Under the pieces are notes generated by a model. It saw only the letters and a list, made by a program, of their open reading frames with translations, did no database searches and had not been told where the DNA came from. From a virus (taxonomy: Duplodnaviria; Caudoviricetes): a stretch of 64,000 nucleotides of DNA. The translations under genes and the position numbers were made by a program. Shown one piece after another: positions 2,781 to 59,461 of the stretch (positions are counted from its first letter, which is position 1; each line of letters opens with the position of its first letter). The stretch is taken from positions 9,250-73,249 of the IMG/VR virus record IMGVR_UViG_3300013121_000054; one strand, 5' to 3'.

Positions 2781-4253
2781 CTAATAATCGATATTTTGCT
2801 TCTCTGCGACCACAGTAGTCGCATCGAGTGGAGATGGTTGAGGATTCAGCGTGTCTATCTCGATGTAGATCTTGTCTGTCGGAAGCAAGTGCAGGCTGGC
2901 CGATGTGCCAGTCAGCACAAGAGTATTGGCTGAATCGGGAGAAAGTGTGCTGAGGTCAAGCGGTCCACCATTAATCAGGGTCGGCCCGCCATAATTCTTG
3001 GTGATAATCAGCGTACCACCAGGCGCGCCACCGACCGAAATTGTCAGTCTCGTGATATCGCACTCACGAACCGGTGGCAAATAGGTGTAATAAGCAGTGT
3101 TATCAGCGAGCGCCAAGCCACCGCCCGGCGTGAAAGTGAGCAGCTCGCGCTTCGCCGCCGGCCCAATGATTGCCTGCTGGAAAAGATTTTGAACCGCCAC
3201 CACGCCATTCAGCAGCGGATTGAGCAGTGTCTTGTGATCGAGAGTCTGCGTACCATTCACGGTGGCCATTGTGTCGGTGGCTTCAGGAACCGTTACCGTC
3301 GCCCCTGCCGCAGTCTCCAGAGAATTGCTACCGAGCTTCGGGGCTGCGGTGAAGGTCTGCTTAAGGCTGAAAGTCTGCGCCGCATCGGTCTTGGCAGTAT
3401 TGCTGCTGACACTAACGGTGGTGGCGCCACTCGCAGTGGCAATGTTTATACCAGTGCCCTGTGTAAGCACCGTGCCTTGCGGGTAGTTTGGATCGGCAGC
3501 AGTGAGCACCACATGCGCCTGCTGGAGTGAATTGCCGTTTTTGTAGATCGGTGAAAGGGCAGCCAGGCGGGTAATGGCTGTAACCGTGGAGCCATTGCTG
3601 ACCACTTTCTGGAGAGCAAGCCCGGGCTGACCAGTAGGTGCCGCCGCGCCATTTGTCACAGCCACATGATTAACCGAGCCATCGCCGAGCAGGTAATCAT
3701 AAGTATCTTTGCTGGCGGTGTAGGTATAGCTATAGCCGCTCGACACCACACGGATGCCTTGTGAATAGGCGATTCCAGAGGGAGTGGTGACTGCAAAGCC
3801 GCTACCCGGCACCGAGCCTAAGAGCCCCGAGACTACCCAATCTGCAAATACATCGCCAGTGGTCAGCTTCGGTGTCAGATCCTTGTCGGAATACTGCCGC
3901 CAGACGGCCGCGCCGACTGTCGGATCTACGCAGACATATGCCTGCTTCGCTACAGCATCGATCCAGAGCGAGCCGATGCCATAACCGTCTGCCGAGTCGT
4001 CACCCACCGCAGGTGCGACAGATGCGCTCAGATTAGTCTTCGGACCATTGAGCGACTGCCAGCTCGTGCCGTTATACATCCAAAGCACGCCATTGTTTAG
4101 CACGTAGGTCTTATTGGCGGTTGGATTCGGGATCGCGCTTGTGGACTGGTTAAAATACAATCCGACAGAAGACGCAGTAGCCCAAGCAAAGGGCATAACA
4201 CATGCCGCAATGCCGATAAGCAGAGCGATCTTCTTCTTGTTACGCAGCATCAA
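2781..4253 (-). CDS. Tail fibre-like protein with N-terminal signal peptide
   Basis: Fibre motif APAVGDDSADGYGIGSLWID..AYVCVD..GAAVW; Thr/Ala/Gly-rich beta segments; N-terminus (M)LRNKKKIALLIGIAACVMPFAWA. Confidence 0.75.
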   Translation of the reverse strand: MMLRNKKKIALLIGIAACVMPFAWATASSVGLYFNQSTSAIPNPTANKTYVLNNGVLWMYNGTSWQSLNGPKTNLSASVAPAVGDDSADGYGIGSLWIDAVAKQAYVCVDPTVGAAVWRQYSDKDLTPKLTTGDVFADWVVSGLLGSVPGSGFAVTTPSGIAYSQGIRVVSSGYSYTYTASKDTYDYLLGDGSVNHVAVTNGAAAPTGQPGLALQKVVSNGSTVTAITRLAALSPIYKNGNSLQQAHVVLTAADPNYPQGTVLTQGTGINIATASGATTVSVSSNTAKTDAAQTFSLKQTFTAAPKLGSNSLETAAGATVTVPEATDTMATVNGTQTLDHKTLLNPLLNGVVAVQNLFQQAIIGPAAKRELLTFTPGGGLALADNTAYYTYLPPVRECDITRLTISVGGAPGGTLIITKNYGGPTLINGGPLDLSTLSPDSANTLVLTGTSASLHLLPTDKIYIEIDTLNPQPSPLDATTVVAEKQNIDY

Positions 4254-5616
4254 GCCCTTTCTCCTTTACGTCGTCACCTACGCCTACTTTGACGATCTTG
4301 CCACCACCCTTGATGTCTTCGCCATGCAAGTAGTCATGGCAGAGATTCTCAAATTGCCCTTTGGGTCCAAAGGAGGCCATGAGCGAAGCGACCGATCTGT
4401 CTGTCGCATCGAATCTATTTGTGCCATGCAGCTTGGCCAGGGCAGCCATAAAGGTAGCGCGTTTCTCGACCTGCACGATTAGCGGCAAGGTCGGTCTGCC
4501 GGTGATTGTCTCGATCACACCTGCATCGCCACCATTGCCAGCATCGCCACCAGAGCCGCCACCAGCGCCGCCGCTTCCGCCGGTCAGCGTCACGGTGCCA
4601 GAGCCGCTGAAACTCGGTGCAAATCTAAGATAGATACCGCCCGAGCCACCGCCGCCGCCACCACCTTTGCCGAGCCCTGCGCCGCCCTGGCCGCCGCTGA
4701 TGATGATCTTGCCGTTGTTAACGATGGTTGTCTGGCTAAAAAAGAAAACAGATCCACCCGCGCCGCCGCCGCCACCGCCATGGCCCGTGGCAGTTGCGAC
4801 GCCGCCATCGGAGCCAAACGACGATACTTGTCCACCGCTGCTGATCGTGATGCTGCCCGCAGCCACTATGCGAAGCGAGCCAGGAGCCGCGCCTGCGTCT
4901 TGGGAATCATCAGCATTTTGATCCGGATTGGGATCGGAAGGGTGTGGGTGTGGCGCATGGGTGACTGGAGGATTCCAAAACCGCAGCAAGCCAGAGCCGC
5001 CAGAATCCCAGTGGTTGAGCACAGCAGCATAGTGATCCCAAATCAGACCGCCGTGCAGGCGCGGGCGTCCGCCCAAATACTGCCTGCCGCCCGGGGCTAG
5101 CGATTTAGCGCCGCCGCCACCACCACCACCACCATAATTGCCGGTAGCTACGCTGGCACCCTGACCACCGCCGCCCCCAATGCCGGAATCCGAGCCGAGC
5201 CCATTACCGCCATCGCCGCCGACGCCACCATTGCCGCCGCCACCACCGCCGCCATCGCCCCCGGTGCCAGTGGTGTCACCGCCACCAGAGCCGCCACCAG
5301 GACCATTGCCGCCAGCACCTGGACCGCCGCCTTTATAGTCATGGTTAACGTTGATCAAGCCCAGGATCGACACATTGCCGAGGGCATTAAGCACAGAGCC
5401 GCTCGGTAGCACCTGGGCTTGAGATGCAGCAACCGTGAAATTCTGATGATTGCGTTGGATCTGGGTATTTTCAGCCACGCTCGTGCTGATCGTGACCGAT
5501 CCGTCGCTCCCATCGCCGCCGAATCTAACCCAGCCAGGGCGCTGCGCCGTAGCATTCGCCATGGCTCCAGACGACAGAAGAAGAGCAGCCACCAAGGCTG
5601 GAATCGTAAGCTTCAT
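4240..5616 (-). CDS. Glycine-rich fibre/adhesin subunit with signal peptide
   Basis: FGGDGSDG followed by repeated GG-rich strands (polyglycine-II-sandwich-like); N-terminus MKLTIPALVAALLLSSGAMA; located in the fibre module. Confidence 0.75.
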   Translation of the reverse strand: MKLTIPALVAALLLSSGAMANATAQRPGWVRFGGDGSDGSVTISTSVAENTQIQRNHQNFTVAASQAQVLPSGSVLNALGNVSILGLINVNHDYKGGGPGAGGNGPGGGSGGGDTTGTGGDGGGGGGGNGGVGGDGGNGLGSDSGIGGGGGQGASVATGNYGGGGGGGGAKSLAPGGRQYLGGRPRLHGGLIWDHYAAVLNHWDSGGSGLLRFWNPPVTHAPHPHPSDPNPDQNADDSQDAGAAPGSLRIVAAGSITISSGGQVSSFGSDGGVATATGHGGGGGGAGGSVFFFSQTTIVNNGKIIISGGQGGAGLGKGGGGGGGSGGIYLRFAPSFSGSGTVTLTGGSGGAGGGSGGDAGNGGDAGVIETITGRPTLPLIVQVEKRATFMAALAKLHGTNRFDATDRSVASLMASFGPKGQFENLCHDYLHGEDIKGGGKIVKVGVGDDVKEKGLDAA

Positions 5617-6903
5617 TTAGCCTCCCGCGTAAGCATCGAGTATGAAATAGTTGCCCGGGGCATTGCCTCCATCCGCCTTGAGGCGCACAGAGTCGCCACC
5701 TTTGACCAGTTCATACTTGTCTGAGTGTTCAATTTGATTGCTACCGGTCGGCCAGATCGTCGCCGTATAGCCGACGTTAGTATCAATCCGCTTGAGCGTG
5801 ATATCTTTCGTATCTACCGTGTCAGGGATGTGGATATCCACCGCAGGAGTCTGTACGTTCAAGAAGTAAACGCCAGAATCAGAGATGGTGAGGGGAAATG
5901 TATCCTCGTAATTGGGCGGATCGTCGAGGCCGCCGCCACCACCGCCACCACCGACAGTGCTCATCGACTGCCAGAGCGTGCCCGAGATCCACGTCCAGAC
6001 ATTAACGAGAGAGCCGCTCACGACCTCAAAAGCGATCATCCCTTGCGCCCCAGCGGTGCCATTGGGGTCAGCCGATACTACTTTGAACAGCGGCAGCTTC
6101 CACCCCGAGCCAGGGCTGGTGCTGGCCACTAGAAGATTGGCAAAGGGGAGAATCCCTTGAACTTCGGACGTGAGATCGATCTGCGGAGCCTGACCGCCGC
6201 CGCCCAGGTGGTGCTGAGTATAAAGACCGCCAGCGAAAGGCGCGCGAGGGTAGCCGGAATACGCATCAGGGCCAGCCACTTTGATGTCAGCATCGACCAC
6301 CTGGGTCTGCCCTTGGTGCAGGTTGATCAGGTACATCGGCACATAGCCCGCAGTGGCCGCTGGTGGCACTTCGCCGCCGCCGCCTGCCGGATTGCCATAG
6401 GTGAGCTTAATGTCTGCCAATCCATGCCTTATGCTTGGCGTGGGGTCGCCGCTGTCGGCAGGGCCGTCGAGCGGATTGCCAGGATCGGACGTGTTGTAAA
6501 ACTTTTTGACGGGCTCAGGGTCGCCTTCTCGCTGATCGTCGGATTGCTTGAATCCAACTTGTATAAGAGCCCATTTGTGCTGTCCGGTGGTCAGGTCGCT
6601 GATATCGAACTCAATCACCTTGCCATCTGTGGTGCCCATCTGGTAGACCAGCGTTGAGTCTTCATCGAATGGCCCCCACGGATCGGCATCCATGACGGTC
6701 TTCTGGAGCAGGATGCCTTGCCCGATGTTGATCGACATATCTGGAGAGAGTTGCGCGGTCGCTGCGAAATATCTCAGCGCAGCATCATCGCTACCCAGCA
6801 GCAGCTCGGCAAGCTTTCCGTAACCAGTGATTACATCCTTGATGAAGGACAGAAAATCGAAGGCGCGAATCTGTTGCAGAGACTCAATATAAGGTTTTTC
6901 CAC
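5617..6903 (-). CDS. Baseplate-proximal tail fibre protein
   Basis: Directly follows the baseplate wedge gene; likely start GTG 6903 (VEKPYIE) after AGGAGA; N-terminal anchor-like region, poly-Gly hinge, C-terminal beta domain. Confidence 0.75.
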   Translation of the reverse strand: MEKPYIESLQQIRAFDFLSFIKDVITGYGKLAELLLGSDDAALRYFAATAQLSPDMSINIGQGILLQKTVMDADPWGPFDEDSTLVYQMGTTDGKVIEFDISDLTTGQHKWALIQVGFKQSDDQREGDPEPVKKFYNTSDPGNPLDGPADSGDPTPSIRHGLADIKLTYGNPAGGGGEVPPAATAGYVPMYLINLHQGQTQVVDADIKVAGPDAYSGYPRAPFAGGLYTQHHLGGGGQAPQIDLTSEVQGILPFANLLVASTSPGSGWKLPLFKVVSADPNGTAGAQGMIAFEVVSGSLVNVWTWISGTLWQSMSTVGGGGGGGGLDDPPNYEDTFPLTISDSGVYFLNVQTPAVDIHIPDTVDTKDITLKRIDTNVGYTATIWPTGSNQIEHSDKYELVKGGDSVRLKADGGNAPGNYFILDAYAGG

Positions 6904-51857: not shown

Positions 51858-53156
51858 TCATCAGCGAGATTTTAGCGCCCGACAGCCTGCGCAAAATCTA
51901 CAGCGTGCCCAGCGCGCGCCTTGAGTACATAGAGCAGCTCATCATGGTGGAGCTGCAAAAGCAGGCGGCGCTCTACGGCAGAAAGCCACATGCTGGATTC
52001 AGTCTGCCACTTTCGGAGAAGGATCGCGAGCACCTCGACGCAGCCTTCACGGCAGCCGGCTGGCGGACGCGGTGGTCCAAGGATATTGATAATTGGATCT
52101 TGGTTGTCTATGAGGAGTAGCACCGTGGGAGCTAATGACAAGTATGAGCGCCACACTCAGCGTGAAGGCTGGGAGGTTGGCAAATTTGCTAAGCGCGATC
52201 GCAGAAACAAGAGGCGTTTGCGCACGACTACGCAGAAAGAGGATCAAGCAGAGGTGCGCGCGAGCCACTCAGAGCAGGCAGTCGATGCTGACTTGCCGCG
52301 CCGATGCCCCGGCCCTGCATTCTGCGATGAGATCGAGTGTGACTACTGTGGCAGGCTGTGAGGGTTATCTAATGAGTGGATACGACTATGACCAGGCGCC
52401 AGAGCAGGAGGTGCCACCAACAATGATCGAGCTGGTGATCATCGGGCTGCTGATCGCGGTGGTCTTCTCGATCAGCGCAGCGCGACAAATCAAGGAGGCA
52501 TTCAGCAGAAGATGAACATCAATGTACCCGAGTCAGCAAGAGACCACTTCTGGCAGGAGCCACCGCCCGGGCATCGAGAATTCTGGAGCTTCAGCCGCTT
52601 CAAGCCGCCCTGCGCTGTCGGCGATGTGCTGATATTTCGCTTCGATGGCGAGGCAGTGGCGCGAGCGATCTGCTCGGAAATCGAGCCACCTGGGCAGTCA
52701 AAGTGTGCCAGCACTGGGCGCTTTGAGCGTGGCTGGAAAGTGTATTGGGAGCCGGAAACCTTTGAGGATCTGCGCGGCTCTATGAGACAAACCCTAAGAT
52801 CGCCATGACACCACACATAGTATTATTCTCTGCACTGCATTAAACCGAGGAATTACCGCATGCTTACGCCTGATGAGGCTAAGGGCGTGCCGCGCCCACA
52901 GCGCGAGCAGAAGCCCAAGGAAGATGAAACAAATTGGGAGCAGGAGCGCGACGCGATGATCGAGCGCGTGAATAAGTTTCTGCGCGATGGTAATTACAGA
53001 GGCCGCCCCTTCCAGCTCGAAATCGGCAAGGGCTGCCAGAAAGCTCGCAAGGGCTTTGTCCAGCACCTTGAAGCTCACGGCTGGCGGGCTGATGAAAAGA
53101 TGTTCTTTGATCGCGGCACCGAGAACTGGGTCGCGCGCATCAAGCAGGCTTTCTGA
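51854..53156 (+). CDS. Small hypothetical genes (51854-52120, ~52371-52515, 52512-52808 ASCH/PUA-like, 52860-53156)
   Basis: Coupled ORFs; 52512 has VGDVLIFRFDG..VARA. Confidence 0.5.
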
Positions 53157-53434
53157 TGAAAGTCGCACTGCATGAGCTAAAGACCGAGCAGCCTTGGTTT
53201 AGCGAAATAGCGCGCGGTATCAAGGATTTCGAGGTGCGTGAGCACGATCGGATCTTTGAGGTCGGCGACCTGCTGAATCTGCGCGAATACGACAAAAACT
53301 ATAAGTGCTATAGCGGAAGACACATTCTGGCGCGCATCAAGAAGGTGATGAGCCATGAAGAATTCCCGCTGGCAATCCGTAAAGGTTACTGCATTCTCGG
53401 CATCGAGAGGCTCTCACAAACTATCCAAACATAA
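53156..53434 (+). CDS. DUF3850/ASCH-domain protein
   Basis: HELKT..P.F..I..G.K.FE.R..DR.FEVGD.L.LREY.....YSGR.....I..V......GY.ILGI. Confidence 0.88.
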   Translation: MKVALHELKTEQPWFSEIARGIKDFEVREHDRIFEVGDLLNLREYDKNYKCYSGRHILARIKKVMSHEEFPLAIRKGYCILGIERLSQTIQT

Positions 53435-53449
53435 GGAGAATCATAGACT

Positions 53450-54190
53450 ATGGGGAAAATCTTGAGTCAGGTACTGGCTCTTCAGCAAGGCCGCAAAGAA
53501 AGCATCGACAAAGAAATCAGCCAGCTCGCAACAGCATCCACAAAACTTGATCAGCTCACTGGCTTTGTGAATCAGTACCAAGCCTTGAATGAGGAAGATC
53601 ACGAGCAGTTCAGCGATGAGGCCAAGAAGGTGCAAGCAATAGCGCCAGATATCCTTTCGCGCTTGTCGCAGCTTATTGCCGAAGAGGTGGACATCGAAGC
53701 CACCAAGGACAATACCAACTGCTTCGCCCGGGCTGATATTATCCTTTCCGGCATAGTGTGGGCAAAAGATGTGCCAGTCACTACTCTGCTCTACCTCGAA
53801 AAACGTCTGACCGCTTGGCGGGCGATCATATCGAAGATACCCATGCTTGACGCATCGGAGAACTGGACCCCAGACACCACTCAGCAAGGGCTGTGGAGGA
53901 GTGAAACGCGCAAGACCCACAGAACCAAGAAGGTGCCGAAGCCGATCACACTGGCGCCTGCTACTACGGAATTCCCCGCCCAGGTGCAAATGATCGCAGA
54001 AGACCAGGTAGTCGGCTACTATCACAAAGTGATTCTTTCTGGCGCACTGCCGGCCACTCGCTGGGCGCAGCTCATGCAGCAAGCAAACCAATTGATCGAT
54101 GCTGTGCGAATGGCGAGAGAGCAAGCAAATACTGTTCCTGCACAAGATCTAAAGATCGGACAAGCGATCTTTGATTACCTGATGCAGTAG
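53450..54190 (+). CDS. Conserved uncharacterised protein (recalled as DUF7873-like), upstream of tRNA-mimic RNAs
   Basis: K.LSQV.A....K, G....Y....E..E....E.K.VQ, D..ATKD.TN..ARAD, VPVT.LLYLEK.L, RTKK.P, A.AT...PAQV....ED...G......SGALP, A.K.ARE.AN, IF.YL; family name from memory and unverified. Confidence 0.8.
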   Translation: MGKILSQVLALQQGRKESIDKEISQLATASTKLDQLTGFVNQYQALNEEDHEQFSDEAKKVQAIAPDILSRLSQLIAEEVDIEATKDNTNCFARADIILSGIVWAKDVPVTTLLYLEKRLTAWRAIISKIPMLDASENWTPDTTQQGLWRSETRKTHRTKKVPKPITLAPATTEFPAQVQMIAEDQVVGYYHKVILSGALPATRWAQLMQQANQLIDAVRMAREQANTVPAQDLKIGQAIFDYLMQ

Positions 54191-54201
54191 AATGACAAAG
54201 C

Positions 54202-54344
54202 TGTGAGGCGAAGCTAAAGCTCAATTTCAAGTTAAGCTCGCAGAGAGGAGAGGAAGGTTCGATTCCTTCCTCGGGCACCATAAGCCCGAGTAGCCCAGAT
54301 GGTAGAGGCACTCTCGGCGAAAGAAAGTTAAGTCTATCCTCACA
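54202..54344 (+). ncRNA. Circularly permuted tRNA-like RNA module 1 (YrlA/Y-RNA-like topology)
   Basis: T-arm GAAGG-TTCGATT-CCTTC, then CTCGGGC-ACCA, TAA, GCCCGAG-TA-D arm; CTCTC/GAGAG stem; outer TGTGAGG/CCTCACA stem. Confidence 0.8.
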
Positions 54345-54379
54345 AGTTGATGCCTGGAACCAGTTGCGAAAATCCAGCA

Positions 54380-54478
54380 GCGGCAAAAATCTAGTTTATA
54401 TGTCAGTTCAAGTCTGACCGTGGGTGCCAGCCCGCGTAGCTCAATGGCAGAGCGAAACTATTCAATCTGAAACGTCGC
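54380..54478 (+). ncRNA. Circularly permuted tRNA-like RNA module 2
   Basis: T-arm GTCAG-TTCAAGT-CTGAC, CGTGGGT-GCCA, then GCCCGCG-TA-GCTC-AATGGCA-GAGC; AAACTA/TAGTTT stem; GCGGC/GTCGC outer helix. Confidence 0.78.
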
Positions 54479-54516
54479 ACTAAAATCGCTGAGAAGATTC
54501 GTTAATGAGCAGAGCA

Positions 54517-54588
54517 CTGCATGTAGCTCAAGAGTAGAGCAACAGTCACGTAAACTGTAGAGTGCGGGTGCGATTCCCGTCTTGCAAA
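54517..54588 (+). pseudogene. Degenerate tRNA, normal order, anticodon CGT (Thr-like)
   Basis: Full cloverleaf spacing; ACAGT-CACGTAA-ACTGT; acceptor 5/7 paired; T loop TGCGATT; no U33; no CCA. Confidence 0.65.
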
Positions 54589-54595
54589 TAAACCG

Positions 54596-54633
54596 CGCGC
54601 TCGCAGGAGGCTACCCTGCGGGCGTTGCTTTTC
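54596..54633 (+). terminator. Probable terminator after the RNA cluster
   Basis: CGCAGG/CCTGCG hairpin with GC extension, then GCTTTT. Confidence 0.55.
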
Positions 54634-54639
54634 GAGTCA

Positions 54640-54669
54640 TTGACATAACCGCAAATTTGCGGTTATAGT
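54640..54669 (+). promoter_or_regulatory. Sigma70 promoter with a perfect 22-bp palindromic operator in the spacer
   Basis: TTGACA (54640)-18 nt-TATAGT (54664); ATAACCGCAAATTTGCGGTTAT at 54645-54666. Confidence 0.8.
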
Positions 54670-54700: not shown

Positions 54701-55549
54701 ATGGATATCAACCTCGCCGATTACGACATCATCCTGATTAACAGCTCGGGCGGCAAAGACAGCCAGGCGATGCTGGATGAGGTCTTCTGGCAGGCACTGC
54801 GTGCCGGTGTGGTTGATCGCCTGGTAGTGGCTCACGCCGACCTCGGGCGCGTGGAGTGGAAGGGTACGAAAGAGCTGGCGCAGCGTCAAGCTCAGAGCTA
54901 TGGCATCCGCTTCATCGCCTGCCGCCGAGAGCTGGGCGACCTGCTGGACTACATAGAAGAGCGGGGAATGTGGCCCGACAGCCAGGCGCGCTACTGCACC
55001 AGCGACTTTAAGCGCGGCCCAATCCGCAAAGTCATGACCGCGCTGGTGGCAGAGAAGCACCTCGCTGTGCCTGCTAGCGAGCGCCGCCAGCTCAAGATCC
55101 TTAACTGCATGGGCATGCGAAAGCAAGAGAGCCCGAAGCGCGCCAAAATGCAGATGTTTACTGCGCCGAGCTGCAAAATCAGCAAGCGCCCGAAGAAAGG
55201 AGAGACCGTCTGGGAAGGCGCCAGCAATGGAAAACGCCTCGTTTATGACTACCTGCCAATCCACGATTGGACCGAGGCGCAGGTCTGGGATCGTATACGC
55301 GAATCAGGTGTCGAGTATCACCCAGCATATGACCTCGGCATGCCGCGCCTCTCCTGCGTATTTTGCGTCTTTGCGCCGAAGAGCGCTCTGATAGTCGCAG
55401 GCAGAGCCAATCCCGAGCTGCTCGACGAATATATCCGCGTCGAAGACAAGATCAAGCACCTGTTCAGAAAAGATTTCAGCCTCCACGAAGTGCGCGATGC
55501 CATCAGGCGTGGTGACAAGGTGGAAGCCGTTGAAAGCTGGGCCATGTAA
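54701..55549 (+). CDS. PAPS-reductase/PP-loop family protein (phage type)
   Basis: SSGGKDSQ PP-loop, HADLG.VEW, R.CTS..K..P, G.R..ES..RA, HPAYD.GM.RLSCVFC. Confidence 0.88.
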   Translation: MDINLADYDIILINSSGGKDSQAMLDEVFWQALRAGVVDRLVVAHADLGRVEWKGTKELAQRQAQSYGIRFIACRRELGDLLDYIEERGMWPDSQARYCTSDFKRGPIRKVMTALVAEKHLAVPASERRQLKILNCMGMRKQESPKRAKMQMFTAPSCKISKRPKKGETVWEGASNGKRLVYDYLPIHDWTEAQVWDRIRESGVEYHPAYDLGMPRLSCVFCVFAPKSALIVAGRANPELLDEYIRVEDKIKHLFRKDFSLHEVRDAIRRGDKVEAVESWAM

Positions 55550-55564
55550 AAAGGAGGAGCAACT

Positions 55565-56511
55565 TTGAACCAAGACAATCCACTAATGCTGATACCACCG
55601 GAGATCGAGGCGCTTATCCTCGACGGCCGGGCGCTGCTGCTGAATACCGCGCAGGAAGGCGCTAGGGGCGATAGCTGCGTCGGCTTGATGGATGAAGCAG
55701 GCGATCCAATTCTCTCTATTAACTGGGGGAACCTGGACTATGAGCCAGGCCAATATTGCGTGATTATCGGGATCGATGGTCGAAACGTGCACTACTTCGC
55801 GAGTGCCGCTGAAGCCGTCAAGCTTTACGAGGAGTGCAGACTGAGATGTTAGGAAAGAAGAAGCCAGAGCGAATGCTCACAATCAGATATGCAACAAACT
55901 ACCGAGAACATGGCGGTGACTTCTATTCGCTATTAGAGTTTTACTTTTCGACAAACTATGAAAAGCGCGGTCAAAGGCACCCAGTTCATCGCCCGGTGCT
56001 TAGCGTCTACTTCCATGGGGGCAAAAAATCTTGGTTTTCCCAACACGGCATGAATCAACCGTGGAAGGAAATCACGAGCAAAGAAGCCGTCGAGCTGATC
56101 CGCAAGCATTCAGCGAAGGGTCTTGATCAAATTCACAAGCACATTCCTCACAGACAGATTGGAAAGCTCACACTGCCAGAGACGACGACTAAGACAACCA
56201 AAGATAGGATTGCCGAGGACAATTGCCCTGATGATGAATATCAGCTCGGCGTGCTCATAGGGGCGCACCAAAAATATGAATCCGAACTTCAGGCAGTGCT
56301 GAAACAGATACAGCGAGTGACTTTAATCGATATCACCGATGAGAGCACCGCGGAGGTTGTGCTAGAAAGCGTTTGCAATATCGAGCGCTTGCAAGAACTT
56401 CGTGCAGCGCTCGGGCTCATGGTCGAAAGACTTGCGACTATTAATCGCAAAATGCGCAGCCAATCTAACTTCATTCGCCACAGAAAGGGATTGCCACTAA
56501 TCCAAGTATAA
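55565..56511 (+). CDS. Two hypothetical genes (55565-55852, ~55846-56511)
   Basis: Coupled ORFs with RBS; no family recognised. Confidence 0.55.
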
Positions 56512-56525
56512 GGAGCAGAAAAAAC

Positions 56526-58307
56526 ATGAAGCGCGAACCAAGACAAATGAATCTCTTTGATGAGCTGATCATCGATAACTTTGCCGGTGGAGGCGGAGCC
56601 TCGACTGGCATCGAGCTGGCGATCGGTCGGTCGGTTGACATTGCGATCAACCATGACCCTGAGGCGATCATCATGCACGAAGCTAATCACCCTTTCACAA
56701 AGCACTATTGTGAGAATATCTGGGAAGTAGACCCAGTGGAAGCCTGCGCTGGCCGCCCAGTCGGTCTCGCATGGTTCAGCCCAGACTGCAAGCACTTCAG
56801 CAAAGCCAAGGGCGGCAAGCCGCGCGAGCAGAAAATCAGAGGCCTCGCCTGGGTCGCCCTGCGCTGGGCGAAAGCAGTCAAGCCGCGCGTGATCTTTCTG
56901 GAGAACGTCGAGGAGTTTATCACCTGGGGGCCGCTCGGCCCAGACGGCACACCCTGCGCACGTCGAAAGGGGAGCACGTTTACTGCCTTTGTGCGGGCCC
57001 TGGAAAAGGAAGGGTATGCAGTAGAGTGGAAAATGTTGCGCGCGTGCGACTACGGGGCACCCACCACCCGCAAACGGCTCTTTATGGTGGCGCGGTGCGA
57101 CGGTCAGCAGATCGTCTGGCCAACACCTACGCACGGCGACCCGAAGAGCAAGGAGGTCTGGTCTTGCAAGCTCAAGCCATGGCGCACGGCCGCCGAGTGC
57201 ATAGACTGGAGCCTGCCCTGCCCATCAATCTTTGAACGCGAGAAGCCACTGGCTGAGGCGACGCTGCGCCGCATCGCCCGCGGTATCGTCAAATATGTCA
57301 TCCAGGCGAAAGAACCTTATATCGTCACCTGCAACCACAGCGGCGATAACTTCCGCGGTCAGGGCGTGAATGAGCCCATGAAGACAATCACCGCGAGCAG
57401 AGATGCGCACGGCGTGGTAGTGCCGACGCTGATCCAAACGTCTTACGGTGAGCGCAAGGGGCAAGACCCGCGTGTACCTGGTCTTGAGAAACCACTCGGC
57501 ACAGTGATGGCTCAGGGCAGTAAGCATGCGGTAGTGGCAGCCAGCCTCTTGCAAATGGGATTCGGCGAAGCCCCAGGTAGCCCGCCGAGGTGCATTGACC
57601 CTCAGAAGCCTCTCGGCACGGTGCTGGCTGGCTCAGTAAAGCATGCGCTCGCGTGCGCCACCCTGATCAAGAACTACTCAGGGCACTATCAAGGCTCAGG
57701 CACCAGCCTCGATGAGCCCATGCACACCATCACCTCGCAAGATCATCATTCGATCGCAGCAGTCAACCTGGTGCGCCAATTTGGAAACAGCGAGGGCGCA
57801 GATGCGAAGGCGCCGGTAGGCACCACCACCGCAGGCGGTGGCGGCAAGACCAGCCTGGTGGTATCGAATTTGGTGAAGCTGCGCGGCAAGAACCGCAAAG
57901 ACAGCTTTACCTCTCCAGCAGATCCGATGCCTACCATCACCGCTGGTGGCACCCACATCGGGGAAGTGCGCGCCTTCCTGCTGAAATATTTCGGCAAGAG
58001 CGAAGGGCAGGGTCTTAATGTTCCGGCCCACACACTGACAAGCAAAGACCGCCTGGGGCTCGTGACAATCAACCAGATCGACTATCAGATCGTGGATATC
58101 GGTATGCGAATGCTCCAGCCTCACGAGCTTTTCAAAGCTCAGGGATTCCCTGACGGTTACTTGATTACACCTGAGACGATCGGCAAACCATTCAGCAAGA
58201 CTGCGCAGGTCAGGATGTGTGGAAACTCTGTTAGCCCGGTGGTGGCAGAGGCTTTGGTGCGTGCAAATTATGCACCACTCAAGGTGGCGAAGCGGCGATC
58301 ATCTTAG
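56526..58307 (+). CDS. dcm: DNA (cytosine-5) methyltransferase, large phage type
   Basis: DNFAGGGGAS (motif I), FSPDCKHFS (catalytic Cys), LENVEEF, R.RL, Q...CGNSVSP. Confidence 0.95.
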   Translation: MKREPRQMNLFDELIIDNFAGGGGASTGIELAIGRSVDIAINHDPEAIIMHEANHPFTKHYCENIWEVDPVEACAGRPVGLAWFSPDCKHFSKAKGGKPREQKIRGLAWVALRWAKAVKPRVIFLENVEEFITWGPLGPDGTPCARRKGSTFTAFVRALEKEGYAVEWKMLRACDYGAPTTRKRLFMVARCDGQQIVWPTPTHGDPKSKEVWSCKLKPWRTAAECIDWSLPCPSIFEREKPLAEATLRRIARGIVKYVIQAKEPYIVTCNHSGDNFRGQGVNEPMKTITASRDAHGVVVPTLIQTSYGERKGQDPRVPGLEKPLGTVMAQGSKHAVVAASLLQMGFGEAPGSPPRCIDPQKPLGTVLAGSVKHALACATLIKNYSGHYQGSGTSLDEPMHTITSQDHHSIAAVNLVRQFGNSEGADAKAPVGTTTAGGGGKTSLVVSNLVKLRGKNRKDSFTSPADPMPTITAGGTHIGEVRAFLLKYFGKSEGQGLNVPAHTLTSKDRLGLVTINQIDYQIVDIGMRMLQPHELFKAQGFPDGYLITPETIGKPFSKTAQVRMCGNSVSPVVAEALVRANYAPLKVAKRRSS

Positions 58308-58963: not shown

Positions 58964-59461
58964 ATGACGACGCAAGAAGAACTGCAAGAGCAGGTAAACG
59001 AAATGACCGAAGCGATCGAAGAGCAGAGCAGAGTGATTGCAGTAGTGCCCGAGGCTCTCGCTCGCATCGAGCATGACATTACTGCTCTGAGAGACCGCAT
59101 CGAGCAGAATGGTACATTGCCGGATTTGAGTGCCGCTGCTGAAAAGATTCGCGCAAATACGAGCGTGCTGCGTGTCGCCCTGGAGCAAGCGAAAGCTATT
59201 GACGCCCAGGCTACCTCGGCACCGGTCGAAGCACCGGCACCGGCTGAAGCAGCACCGGCTGAAGCAGCACCGGCTGAAGCACCGGCTGAAGCACCGGCTG
59301 AAGCACCGGCACCGGCTGAAGCAGCACCGGCTGAAGCACCGGTCGAAGCACCGGCTGAAGCAGCACCGGCTGAAGCACCGGTCGAAGCACCGGCTGAAGC
59401 AGCACCGGCTGAAGCAGCACCGGCTGAAGCACCGGCCGAAGCACCGGCCGAAAGCCAATAA
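58964..59461 (+). CDS. Coiled-coil protein with Ala-Pro-Glu (PAEA) low-complexity tail
   Basis: ATG 58964 after GGAGA; heptad N-terminal half, then repeated APAEA. Confidence 0.75.
   Translation: MTTQEELQEQVNEMTEAIEEQSRVIAVVPEALARIEHDITALRDRIEQNGTLPDLSAAAEKIRANTSVLRVALEQAKAIDAQATSAPVEAPAPAEAAPAEAAPAEAPAEAPAEAPAPAEAAPAEAPVEAPAEAAPAEAPVEAPAEAAPAEAAPAEAPAEAPAESQ
59219..59452 (+). repeat. Coding tandem repeat (12/15-bp units GCACCGGCTGAA / GCAGCACCGGCTGAA)
   Basis: Directly visible. Confidence 0.95.

What the first reader, a model, noticed from the sequence alone, without database searches (positions are those of the whole stretch)
53450..54588. Uncharacterised protein followed by tandem circularly permuted tRNA mimics: candidate Ro60-independent Y-RNA-like RNP system
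Seen in the sequence: about 10 nt after the stop of a 246-aa conserved unknown protein, two modules each give the tRNA 3' half BEFORE the 5' half. Module 1: GAGAG (54243-47), 5-nt variable loop, T-arm GAAGG-TTCGATT-CCTTC (54253-69), acceptor 3' strand CTCGGGC plus ACCA (54270-80), linker TAA, acceptor 5' strand GCCCGAG (54284-90; 7/7 WC with the preceding strand), TA, D-arm with GG, then CTCTC (54311-15) pairing back to GAGAG. Module 2 has the same order: TAGTTT, T-arm 54402-18, CGTGGGT+GCCA 54419-29, GCCCGCG 54430-36, D-arm, AAACTA 54455-60. Neither has an anticodon loop; the anticodon-stem position continues into outer helices (TCGC/GCGA and TGTGAGG/CCTCACA in module 1). Module 1 also has GGCGAAG next to its closing stem and three AAG(C/T)T(A)AAG repeats (54211, 54229, 54325). 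Established knowledge: this topology (T-arm, loop-closed acceptor, D-arm on a terminal stem with a GNCGAAN0-1G motif) is that of bacterial YrlA Y RNAs, normally encoded beside Ro60/Rsr. No Ro60 gene is in this window. Inference: the upstream protein may be an alternative partner, making a phage RNP of unknown function. Because CCA is encoded, RNase P/3' processing could give a two-piece, chargeable but non-decoding tRNA mimic, for example a decoy against tRNA-targeting defence or a tether for RNA decay or repair enzymes.
Basis: partly seen in the sequence, partly recalled or inferred. Interest (0 to 1): 0.92.

Follow-up and report, generated by a model that had tools for sequence, protein, structure and literature searches.

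The report
Double tRNA-mimic RNA beside DUF7873
A prophage gene of unknown function (DUF7873) is followed by a folded RNA of about 430 bases carrying two back-to-front tRNA look-alikes. This gene-plus-RNA pair recurs in many bacteria and phages, mostly without Ro60, the only known partner of such RNAs. I found no paper or RNA family entry describing it.

Summary
The two "modules" are not separate genes. They are the cores of one structured RNA (about 54197-54635), transcribed with the DUF7873 gene (53450-54190).

**Layout of the RNA**
- Domain I
- Domain II
- an embedded tRNA-Thr
- a terminal hairpin whose loop, AGGCUAC, is conserved across phyla

**How widely the pair recurs**
- A strict pattern finds the permuted modules downstream of 85 of 90 DUF7873 loci and 66 of 77 viral loci. 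Controls gave 1-5 hits per set.
- In 151 Streptomycetaceae genomes, all 96 with the gene have the RNA next to it.
- 39 of those 96 genomes, and 8 of 9 phage records, have no Ro60 (TROVE) match.
- Every helix tested shows compensatory base changes.

- The GNCGAA Ro-binding motif is not conserved.
- The encoded CCA is present in only about a third of relatives.

**New here**
- Module 1 carries D-arm signatures found only in tRNA-Leu, plus a near-invariant discriminator A.

**Untested**
- Binding, processing and function.
- No RNA-seq run holds this DNA.

The scan has noted this same pair many times before on other DNA. I found no paper or Rfam family describing it.

The parts
53450..54190 (+). 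DUF7873 protein gene (246 aa). It has a good Shine-Dalgarno site and no predicted promoter of its own, so it probably sits in an operon with the small genes upstream.
   Evidence: Pfam PF25283, E 5e-77. The AlphaFold model has pLDDT 92 and matches no known fold. Homologues occur in 74 phage records and in at least 578 cellular loci.
54197..54355 (+). RNA domain I. Helices and arms: P1 54202-08/54338-44; P2 AGCUAA 54212-17 with UUAAGUCU 54328-35; extension 54238-41/54317-20; anticodon-stem-like helix 54243-47/54311-15; T arm 54253-69; acceptor stem 54270-76/54284-90, closed by loop ACCAUAA; D arm 54293-54309 of the tRNA-Leu type.
   Evidence: Sequence; YrlA hit at 30.4 bits; aligned with relatives. 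Model R2 gives full-length hits of 60-130 bits after the DUF7873 gene in viral loci that were not in its seed. In that alignment 91.8% of cells pair, against 42-49% when partners are slid, and 32 of 33 pairs show compensatory changes. tRNA-Leu signature.
54356..54516 (+). RNA domain II. Core permuted tRNA-like module 54392-54460, with its acceptor stem closed by GCCA. Tentative outer helices: 54380-84/54474-78 and 54366-69/54486-89.
   Evidence: YrlA hit at 31.1 bits. Model R1 matches the core only: 54400-54470, 34.5 bits, model positions 49-124. Across the family the domain II helices covary: 96.8% paired against 40-49% slid, and 35 of 35 pairs show compensatory changes. The window's outer helices were read by eye and are short.
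54517..54588 (+). Normal-order tRNA-Thr(CGT), lying between domain II and the terminal hairpin. It has an unusual T loop (UGCGAUU) and a C1-A72 mismatch.
   Evidence: ARAGORN and Rfam tRNA at 49.7 bits. Relatives have a canonical tRNA in the same slot: L164 Thr, L138 Arg, L149 Tyr, L160 Lys, L125 Asn.
54597..54635 (+). Terminal hairpin: 11-bp stem, loop AGGCUAC, then a U-rich tail. It is the conserved 3' element of the RNA and a probable intrinsic terminator.
   Evidence: Terminator scan. A hairpin with an NGGNUAY loop lies downstream of 124 of 166 DUF7873 loci, against 4 on the reverse complement and 5 upstream. Its median position is 383 nt after the stop codon, and AGGCTAC is the commonest loop.
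54640..54669 (+). Near-consensus sigma-70 promoter (TTGACA-18-TATAGT) of the next gene, a PAPS-reductase-like gene. It marks the end of the unit.

Best explanation
The window holds one member of a widespread two-part genetic unit that I could not find described. It consists of the DUF7873 protein gene and, in the same transcript, a structured non-coding RNA of about 430 nt.

**What the RNA contains**
- Two circularly permuted, anticodon-less tRNA-like heads of the YrlA type.
- Each head sits on a long closing helix that carries conserved internal-loop motifs.
- The RNA ends in a hairpin with a conserved NGGNUAY loop.
- Here a normal tRNA-Thr is embedded before that hairpin.

**Most likely mechanism (inferred, not shown)**
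- DUF7873 and the RNA work together as a ribonucleoprotein that does not need Ro60.
- The protein recognises the conserved non-tRNA parts: the closing helices and/or the terminal hairpin.
- The two tRNA-shaped heads present intact tRNA elbows and acceptor ends to tRNA-recognising machinery.
- Head 1 specifically imitates tRNA-Leu: it has a tRNA-Leu-only D arm and a discriminator A. It is therefore the likely contact for LeuRS or another tRNA-Leu-specific factor.
- The unit is transcribed inside tRNA operons, so RNase P probably opens the acceptor loops, as shown for M. smegmatis YrlA (PMC4201824).

**Shown versus inferred**
- Shown: structure, conservation, covariation, gene linkage, lack of a Ro60 requirement, and tRNA-Leu likeness.
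- Inferred: binding, processing and biological role.
For: - **Anatomy:**
- **Gene-RNA linkage by pattern:** 85 of 90 and 66 of 77 loci, against 1-5 in each control set.
- **Linkage by covariance models:** R1 and R2 hit nearly all loci.
- **Streptomycetaceae sample:** 96 of 96 genomes with the gene have a full-length R1 hit of 68-172 bits next to it. Only 1 of 55 genomes without the gene has such a hit.
- **Covariation:** 35 of 35 and 32 of 33 pairs have compensatory changes. Pairing is 92-97%, against 40-49% when partners are slid.
- **Ro60 independence:**
- **Distinct from Ro60-linked RNAs:** those score only 21-37 bits with R2.
- **Conserved terminal loop:**
- **Self-contained unit:** no conserved protein neighbour and no fused forms.
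- **Sits in tRNA clusters, with tRNAs inside the unit:**
- **tRNA-Leu likeness:** the D-arm signatures occur in 21 of 45 tRNA-Leu and 0 of 223 other tRNAs. 81 of 92 module 1 copies carry one, and 81 of 92 have a discriminator A.
- **Possible RNA contact:** a conserved basic strand, RKTHRTKKVPKP, lies on a long beta-hairpin.
Against: - There is no transcript, end-mapping, binding or processing datum for any member. No RNA run holds this DNA.
- DUF7873 has no recognisable RNA-binding fold or motif, and it is not basic overall (pI 5.7; family median 6.7).
- Tight adjacency is also what a purely cis-acting 3' element would show.
- In this window the domain II closing helices are short, and the family model did not detect them.
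- CCA is not conserved, which weakens any general charging model.
- TROVE and DUF7873 co-occur slightly more often than chance (odds ratio 2.0, p 0.04). In one Rhizobium phage and one Streptomycetaceae genome they are neighbours.
Confidence: 0.5

Rival explanations
1. Cis-acting 3' element. The tRNA-like structures are processing and stability signals of the DUF7873 mRNA: tRNA-type punctuation and protection against exonucleases. They are not a trans-acting partner RNA.
For: - The RNA lies directly after the stop codon on the same strand.
- No promoter is predicted between gene and RNA in the window.
- The unit ends at one terminator.
- tRNA genes share the transcript.
Against: - About 370-430 nt with conserved single-stranded motifs, two differently specialised heads and a conserved terminal loop is far more than a processing signal needs.
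- The RNA can be on the opposite strand (L021, L155) or upstream of the gene (L171).
- One genome keeps the RNA without a detectable gene (G046).
- The depositors of phage Kp24 annotate a promoter between the gene and the RNA.
Confidence: 0.12
2. Anti-toxin or decoy unit. One version: the RNA neutralises DUF7873 in a type III-like toxin-antitoxin pair. Another: it soaks up host or phage factors that attack tRNA acceptor ends or tRNA-Leu, protecting real tRNAs during infection.
For: - The unit is enriched in phages and lies inside phage tRNA arrays.
- It has intact tRNA elbows and acceptor ends but no anticodon loop.
- Head 1 has tRNA-Leu identity.
- It is a self-contained two-part unit.
Against: - It is present as a single chromosomal copy in 64% of the Streptomycetaceae sampled, with no defence-island context.
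- The PHROGs and NCBIfam scans returned nothing; the defence library (PADLOC) was not run.
- Gene-then-RNA is the reverse of the known type III order (my own knowledge).
- Known anticodon nucleases could not be decoyed by an RNA that lacks an anticodon loop.
Confidence: 0.15
3. It is an ordinary Ro60-dependent Y RNA pair (YrlA/YrlB) that uses the host's Ro60. DUF7873 is an unrelated neighbour.
For: - The topology is YrlA-like, and its Rfam YrlA scores (30-31 bits) are close to those of genuine Ro60-adjacent RNAs in a Rhizobium phage (36-37 bits). In Streptomycetaceae those score 34-46 bits.
- Ro60-adjacent RNAs also come as tandem pairs.
- The host genome of this provirus cannot be searched.
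Against: - 39 of 96 carrier genomes and 8 of 9 phage records have no TROVE match.
- Where TROVE is present it is usually far away and has its own YrlA-like RNAs.
- The Ro-binding motif is not conserved.
- Ro60-linked RNAs score only 21-37 bits with the domain I model, against 60-130 bits for DUF7873-linked ones.
Confidence: 0.06
4. Decayed, rearranged or split tRNA genes: either algal-type permuted tRNA genes that mature into decoding tRNAs, or a two-piece tmRNA.
For: - The gene order, 3' half before 5' half, is the same as in permuted tRNA and two-piece tmRNA genes.
- Relatives give partial beta-tmRNA hits.
Against: - There is no anticodon loop and no tag reading frame. ARAGORN finds no tmRNA.
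- The anticodon-stem position continues into conserved, covarying long-range helices.
- The architecture is conserved across at least seven phyla and phages, which is incompatible with decay.
Confidence: 0.02

Closest known systems
YrlA (Y RNA-like A; Rfam RF02553), the Ro60/Rsr-bound Y RNA of bacteria and mycobacteriophages (Chen et al. 2014, PMC4201824; Wang et al. 2018, bioRxiv 10.1101/312249)
   Same: - A circularly permuted tRNA-like domain: T arm, loop-closed acceptor stem and D arm.
- No anticodon loop.
- It sits on a long stem formed by the 5' and 3' flanks.
- It often occurs in tandem with a second such RNA.
- It is found in bacteria and phages.
- Both window modules are recognised by the Rfam model at E about 1e-4.
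   Different: - Its scores are below the gathering threshold (30-31 bits against 69).
- It is encoded after DUF7873, not beside Ro60.
- Many carriers have no TROVE match.
- The two heads are fused in one RNA of about 400 nt, with its own conserved closing-helix motifs (AAGCUGA, CAGACUC) and a conserved NGGNUAY terminal hairpin.
- The GNCGAAN0-1G motif is not conserved.
- Ro60-linked RNAs score poorly with the domain I model.
[quoted passage not shown] I could not read the paper; I know it only as summarised in bioRxiv 10.1101/312249.
   Same: - The idea of a tRNA-like non-coding RNA partnered with a protein other than Ro60.
- One relative, Rhodococcus phage NiceHouse, has a band-7 gene about 0.6 kb downstream, after one tRNA.
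   Different: - b7a-tRNA is described as strongly resembling an authentic tRNA, encoded with Band-7 and RtcB.
- Here the RNA is permuted, double-headed and linked to DUF7873.
- No Band-7 or RtcB gene is a conserved neighbour.
Short (74-78 nt) tRNA-Leu genes of actinophages, and bacterial tRNA-Leu
   Same: - Module 1 shares their D arm (URNCCCAA..GGNAGAGGC, or URGCGRAA..GGNAGACGC), a 5-nt variable loop, the T loop and the discriminator A.
   Different: - Module 1 is circularly permuted.
- Its acceptor end is closed by a loop.
- It has no anticodon loop, so it cannot decode.
Two-piece (permuted) tmRNA genes of alpha- and beta-proteobacteria and cyanobacteria
   Same: - The gene order is T arm, acceptor 3' strand with CCA, linker, acceptor 5' strand.
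- Relatives give partial beta-tmRNA model hits.
   Different: - There is no tag reading frame, no pseudoknots and no ARAGORN tmRNA call.
- There are two heads instead of one.

Membership tests
YrlA / bacterial Y RNA (Rfam RF02553; Chen et al. 2014) | A permuted tRNA-like domain (T arm, loop-closed acceptor stem, D arm) on a terminal stem | tested here: met
   Sequence; cmscan alignments of both modules to the YrlA consensus; strict pattern.
YrlA / bacterial Y RNA (Rfam RF02553; Chen et al. 2014) | Score at or above Rfam's gathering threshold (69 bits) | tested here: not met
   30.4 and 31.1 bits. Caveat: Ro60-adjacent RNAs of Streptomycetaceae and a Rhizobium phage also fall below it, at 34-46 bits.
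YrlA / bacterial Y RNA (Rfam RF02553; Chen et al. 2014) | Encoded within about 4 kb of a Ro60/TROVE gene on the same strand (criterion of PMC4201824) | tested here: not met
   There is no TROVE match in the 73-kb provirus record. None in 8 of 9 phage records with the same unit or in 39 of 96 carrier genomes. The host chromosome of this provirus could not be searched.
YrlA / bacterial Y RNA (Rfam RF02553; Chen et al. 2014) | A conserved GNCGAAN0-1G motif near the 5' end (the proposed Ro60 contact) | tested here: inconclusive
   The window has GGCGAAG at 54207 and GGCGAAAG at 54316. Across relatives the motif occurs in 38 of 167 loci, against 50 of 167 on the control strand, at scattered positions. 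It is present here but is not a family feature.
YrlA / bacterial Y RNA (Rfam RF02553; Chen et al. 2014) | Bound by Ro60/Rsr | not testable with these tools
   Needs immunoprecipitation.
   The RNA starts about 7 nt after the stop codon.
   Aligns over its full length with relatives. P1 is 7 bp and P2 pairs at 5 of 6 positions. The D arm is of the CCCA(A/G) tRNA-Leu type and the discriminator is A. The window was in the seed of R2, so its 100-bit score is by construction.
   R1, built without the window, matches only the core: 54400-54470, 34.5 bits. Short candidate outer helices are visible by eye only.
   54597-54625, loop AGGCUAC, the commonest variant.
Pfam DUF7873 (PF25283) | Profile match above the curated cut-off over the full length | tested here: met
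   259 bits against a cut-off of 27; residues 5-245 match profile positions 4-242.
Permuted tRNA genes (algal type) / two-piece tmRNA | An anticodon loop (tRNA), or a tag reading frame with a resume codon (tmRNA) | tested here: not met
   The anticodon-stem position continues into long-range helices. ARAGORN finds no tmRNA.

The most novel reading that the evidence does not exclude
The DUF7873 RNA would be a new class of non-decoding, chargeable tRNA surrogate.
- RNase P cuts both acceptor loops of the operon transcript.
- That leaves a multi-piece RNA held together by its closing helices, with two free acceptor ends.
- Head 1, a tRNA-Leu mimic with A73, is leucylated by LeuRS, which does not read the anticodon.
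- DUF7873 then uses or senses that aminoacyl end. It could act as a non-ribosomal leucyl donor, or as a gauge of LeuRS and tRNA-Leu status that phages carry along with their tRNA sets.
Probability: 0.1. Interest if true: 0.92.

Novelty: new variant of a known kind. Interest (0 to 1): 0.8.

Why it matters
**Why the pair stands out**
- Y RNAs and their tRNA-like YrlA relatives are known only as partners of Ro60.
- Here the same RNA design is doubled, given its own conserved scaffolding, and coupled to a different protein of unknown fold.
- That pair is common: about two thirds of the Streptomycetaceae sampled, several other phyla, and many cultured and uncultured phages. In phages it sits among tRNA genes.

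**What it offers**
- A tractable entry to a long-open question: what tRNA mimicry by bacterial non-coding RNAs is for.
- Cultured carriers in which to test it, such as Streptomyces species and Gordonia, Arthrobacter, Klebsiella and Ralstonia phages.

**Practical consequence**
- The RNA is missing from Rfam, and annotators mislabel parts of it. In phage Kp24, for example, part of it is called a suppressor tRNA.

Tried and rejected
**Searches that found nothing or could not run**
- Nucleotide search of phage records with the window: no match.
- The search for related loci with the single window protein in viral contigs, and with P0035 in genomes: no confirmed loci. The first alignment was too diverse to give search patterns.
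- Relatives cannot be drawn for a virus record.
- Sequencing runs: no RNA holder is listed. The only holders are DNA runs of one activated-sludge study.

**Annotation of DUF7873**
- Fold and annotation searches gave nothing above background: PDB by Foldseek, VIA wide (helical bundles only, Z at most 8.9), BFVD, a PDB sequence profile, PHROGs, NCBIfam and the ESM Atlas.
- Searches for fused or longer forms found none, apart from one 457-aa entry.
- Conserved protein neighbours in 80 cellular loci: only unrelated genes (aminotransferase, chaplin, DUF2293, a short-chain dehydrogenase).

**Literature**
- Burroughs and Aravind 2016, and the 2020 review of Ro60 and Y RNAs, are not held.
- No paper in the library contains 'DUF7873'.

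**Leads rejected**
- The third, weak YrlA-like hit at window 51873-51976 (18 bits) lies in coding sequence and has no T-loop motif.
- I considered pairing between the terminal loop GGCUAC and the GUAGCC of module 1. I dropped it because the loop varies (GGAUA, GGGUA) while GUAGCC stays constant.
- MFE folding of the window RNA alone is not distinctive (z = -1.25). The support for the structure comes from comparison with relatives.
Full report
**1. The observation**

- Module 1 reads GAGAG (54243-47), a 5-nt variable loop, T arm GAAGG-TTCGATT-CCTTC (54253-69), acceptor 3' strand CTCGGGC (54270-76), ACCA, TAA, acceptor 5' strand GCCCGAG (54284-90), TA, D arm (54293-54309), A, CTCTC (54311-15).
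- Module 2 has the same order (54392-54460), with GCCA closing the acceptor stem.
- ARAGORN and Rfam at gathering thresholds see only the normal tRNA-Thr(CGT) at 54517-54588.
- At a relaxed threshold the Rfam YrlA model aligns to both modules: 30.4 bits over the whole model and 31.1 bits, with E about 1e-4. Both are far below the gathering score of 69.
- The upstream ORF is a full-length member of Pfam DUF7873.
- A terminator-like hairpin at 54597-54625, followed by a near-consensus promoter for the next gene, bounds the unit.

**2. The source**

- The window is an IMG/VR provirus record of 73 kb. An integrase gene and a host recJ gene lie at the right end.
- The DNA is held only by DNA runs of one activated-sludge study.
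- The closest recJ is 56% identical, in an unnamed MAG. The host is therefore uncultured, and its genome could not be searched.

**3. The gene-RNA pair recurs**

*Where DUF7873 is found*
- tblastn finds it in 74 cultured-phage records, with Vibrio, Gordonia, Rhizobium, Klebsiella jumbo, Arthrobacter, cyanobacterial and Ralstonia hosts.
- In nine records that I opened, the gene lies in or beside tRNA clusters. It is followed by an unannotated or sparsely annotated stretch of 250-1100 nt.
- Seven of those nine stretches give sub-threshold YrlA hits.
- A pattern scan of one genome per species found at least 578 cellular loci. They include Streptomyces, Kitasatospora, Actinomadura, Acidobacteriota, Myxococcota, Abditibacteriota, Planctomycetota and Deinococcus.
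- A scan of IMG/VR gave 80 more viral loci.

*How often the modules follow the gene*
- I used a strict pattern: a 5-bp T stem, an NTCRANN loop, 7 nt pairing with 7 nt that lie 3-70 nt downstream, then a D arm.
- It hits within 700 nt downstream in 85 of 90 loci, with two modules in 58 of them, and in 66 of 77 viral loci.
- Controls: 3 and 5 hits upstream, and 2 and 1 on the reverse complement.
- Covariance models built here, R1 for domain II and R2 for domain I, recover the remaining loci, including those the pattern missed.

*Streptomycetaceae sample*
- In an even sample of 151 Streptomycetaceae genomes, 96 have DUF7873.
- All 96 have a full-length R1 hit of 68-172 bits a few hundred bases after the gene, on the same strand.
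- Only one of the 55 genomes without the gene has such a hit.

**4. One RNA, not two genes**

Alignment of relatives shows a common plan.

- *Domain I.* A closing helix P1 (window 54202-08 with 54338-44). A second helix P2 between the repeated AAGCUGA-type motif and a CAGACU-type motif (window 54212-17 with 54328-35). Then an anticodon-stem-like helix and head 1.
- *Domain II.* Three nested closing helices, an anticodon-stem-like helix and head 2.
- *Terminal hairpin.* Its loop reads NGGNUAY.

*Covariation*
- For domain II, RNAalifold on 18 sequences finds compensatory changes in 25 of 35 pairs.
- On the model-fitted alignment of 134 matches, 96.8% of cells pair, against 40-49% when partners are slid. 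All 35 pairs show double changes.
- For domain I, across 108 distinct, mostly viral sequences, 91.8% of cells pair, against 42-49% when slid. 32 of 33 pairs show double changes.
- These alignments are fitted to the structure, so the percentages lean towards it. The slid controls and the RNAalifold result on a plain MAFFT alignment point the same way.

*Terminal hairpin*
- A hairpin with an NGGNUAY loop is found downstream of 124 of 166 loci, at a median of 383 nt after the stop codon. Controls: 4 on the reverse complement and 5 upstream.
- The window's loop, AGGCUAC, is the commonest variant.
- A loop sequence kept across phyla suggests the hairpin is more than a terminator.

*How the window compares*
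- The window is a somewhat divergent member. Its domain I fits over the full length.
- R1, which was built without the window, matches only the core of domain II (54400-54470, 34.5 bits). The outer domain II helices I propose are short and were read by eye.

**5. tRNAs inside the unit**

- In the window a normal tRNA-Thr lies between domain II and the terminal hairpin.
- The viral relative L164 has the same layout, with tRNA-Thr(UGU).
- Others have Arg, Tyr, Lys or Asn tRNAs in that slot.
- The unit is therefore transcribed and processed together with tRNAs. That makes RNase P access to the acceptor loops plausible. This is an inference, by analogy with M. smegmatis YrlA, which RNase P cleaves (PMC4201824).

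**6. Relation to Ro60 and YrlA**

*TROVE is often absent*
- No TROVE match in the provirus record.
- None in 8 of 9 phage records.
- None in 2 of 5 complete carrier genomes.
- None in 39 of 96 Streptomycetaceae carriers.
- The 2x2 table is 57/39/23/32, with odds ratio 2.0 and p 0.04.

*Where TROVE is present*
- It is usually far from DUF7873, and it has its own tandem YrlA-like RNAs next to it.
- Rhizobium phage TM21B carries both systems about 5 kb apart.
- Ro60-adjacent RNAs score 21-37 bits with the domain I model, against 60-130 bits for DUF7873-linked RNAs.

*The Ro-binding motif*

The RNA therefore shares the YrlA-type tRNA-like core but forms a separate family with a different partner gene.

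**7. The encoded CCA**

- Both window modules encode NCCA.
- Across two-module loci, only 21 of 58 module 1 copies and about 15 of 58 module 2 copies do.
- The base at the discriminator position is far better kept than the CCA. In module 1 it is A in 57 of 58 copies and in 81 of 92 in the larger set. In module 2 it is U or G.

**8. Head 1 is a tRNA-Leu mimic (new here)**

- The D arm of module 1 comes in two lineage-specific forms: URNCCCAA..GGNAGAGGC and URGCGRAA..GGNAGACGC.
- Among 268 canonical tRNAs that ARAGORN predicts in all these loci, these two signatures occur only in tRNA-Leu: 21 of 45 tRNA-Leu, and 0 of 223 others.
- 81 of 92 module 1 copies carry one of them, including all 47 cellular ones.
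- Actinophage short tRNA-Leu genes of 74-78 nt, with anticodons UAG, CAA, GAG and UAA, share the D arm, variable loop, T loop and discriminator A with module 1.
- From my own knowledge of tRNA identity rules: bacterial LeuRS does not read the anticodon. It relies on A73 and on the tertiary structure of the D and T arms. I did not test this here.
- Head 1 is therefore the kind of RNA that LeuRS, or another tRNA-Leu-specific factor, could still recognise.

**9. The protein**

- The AlphaFold model is confident (pLDDT 92). It shows long helices packed against a sheet with a long beta-hairpin.
- It matches nothing above background in the PDB, BFVD or the ESM Atlas.
- No PHROG, NCBIfam or PDB sequence match exists. 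The PADLOC defence library was not scanned.
- No fused forms were found.
- No protein neighbour is conserved.
- The protein is not basic overall (pI 5.7). It does carry a conserved basic stretch, RKTHRTKKVPKP, on the hairpin.

**10. Reading**

*What is shown*
- A conserved, covarying structured RNA.
- Genetic coupling to DUF7873.
- Independence from Ro60.
- tRNA-Leu likeness of head 1.

*What I infer (confidence about 0.5)*
- The protein and RNA form a ribonucleoprotein.
- The tRNA-shaped heads engage tRNA-recognising machinery.
- The protein reads the conserved non-tRNA parts.

*Rivals*
- A cis-acting 3' element of the mRNA.
- An antitoxin or decoy.
- A host-Ro60-dependent Y RNA.
- Rearranged tRNA or tmRNA genes. 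The last is effectively excluded.

**11. Novelty**

- No paper in the library mentions DUF7873.
- The papers that mention YrlA together with phages describe only Ro60-linked RNAs or Rfam hits.
- The nearest idea in print that I could trace is the predicted Band-7-associated tRNA of Burroughs and Aravind 2016. I could not read that paper and know it only through bioRxiv 10.1101/312249.
- Earlier agents of this scan reached the same core conclusion on other genomes.
- My tests here were independent of theirs. They add the co-occurrence counts, the terminal-loop statistics, the embedded tRNAs and the tRNA-Leu identity.

Noticed in passing
window 59272-59447 (-): ARAGORN calls two adjacent 'tRNA-SeC(tca)' genes just upstream of the integrase gene. 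Rfam finds no tRNA or tRNA-Sec there, even at E up to 1. They are probably false calls in a repeat or att-like region.
   Followed up: partly
window 53156-53434 (+): The gene immediately upstream of DUF7873 is a DUF3850/ASCH-like protein of 92 aa. As I recall, ASCH domains are often RNA-binding. I did not check whether this neighbour recurs.
   Followed up: no
window 54701-58307 (+): Downstream of the unit lie a PAPS-reductase-like PP-loop protein, an unknown 225-aa protein and a 593-aa C5 cytosine DNA methylase. This may be a DNA-modification module of the prophage.
   Followed up: no
L010 (Microcoleus phage My-WqHQDG) 3831-5908: A HEARO RNA (IS200/605-type guide RNA, 129 bits) and a 425-aa ORF sit between the DUF7873 gene and its full-length RNA. 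Domain I is at 5542-5683 and domain II at 5815-5908. A lone T arm and acceptor stem remain at 3831-3943. It looks as if a transposon has inserted into the RNA gene.
   Followed up: partly
L011 (Klebsiella phage vB_KpM_FBKp24) 3793-4088: The deposited annotation places a promoter right after the DUF7873 stop codon and labels 4009-4088 'tRNA-Sup-TTA'. That stretch overlaps domain II of the RNA (YrlA hit 4053-4146), so the suppressor-tRNA call is probably wrong.
   Followed up: partly
L008, L009, L115, L158, L167, L170, L171 (actinophage and viral loci): These loci hold a class of short tRNA-Leu genes, 74-78 nt, with no long variable arm and with anticodons UAG, CAA, GAG or UAA. All have the D arm GCCCAA..GGCAGAGGC that module 1 of the RNA also carries.
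   Followed up: partly
L100, L102, L103 (Streptomycetaceae) and L014 (Rhizobium phage TM21B): Ro60/TROVE genes here are preceded by YrlA-like RNAs, in tandem pairs in L100, L102 and L014. They score only 34-46 bits, below Rfam's gathering score of 69. Rfam's YrlA model therefore misses genuine Ro60-adjacent RNAs in these lineages.
   Followed up: partly
G068:C4:4561415-4564681; G046:C11:242848-243002; G045:C62:58725-59049: Three exceptions among the Streptomycetaceae genomes. In one, a TROVE gene lies 2.4 kb upstream of DUF7873. One has the RNA (74 bits) without a detectable DUF7873. One has a truncated DUF7873 remnant abutting the RNA.
   Followed up: no
L009 (Gordonia phage Phendrix) 1066-1594: A phage tmRNA (89 bits) lies in the same tRNA array as the DUF7873 unit.
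   Followed up: no
window 54517-54588: The embedded tRNA-Thr(CGT) has G in place of U55 in its T loop (UGCGAUU), and C1-A72 and U6-U67 mismatches in the acceptor stem. It may be a poor or specialised tRNA.
   Followed up: no
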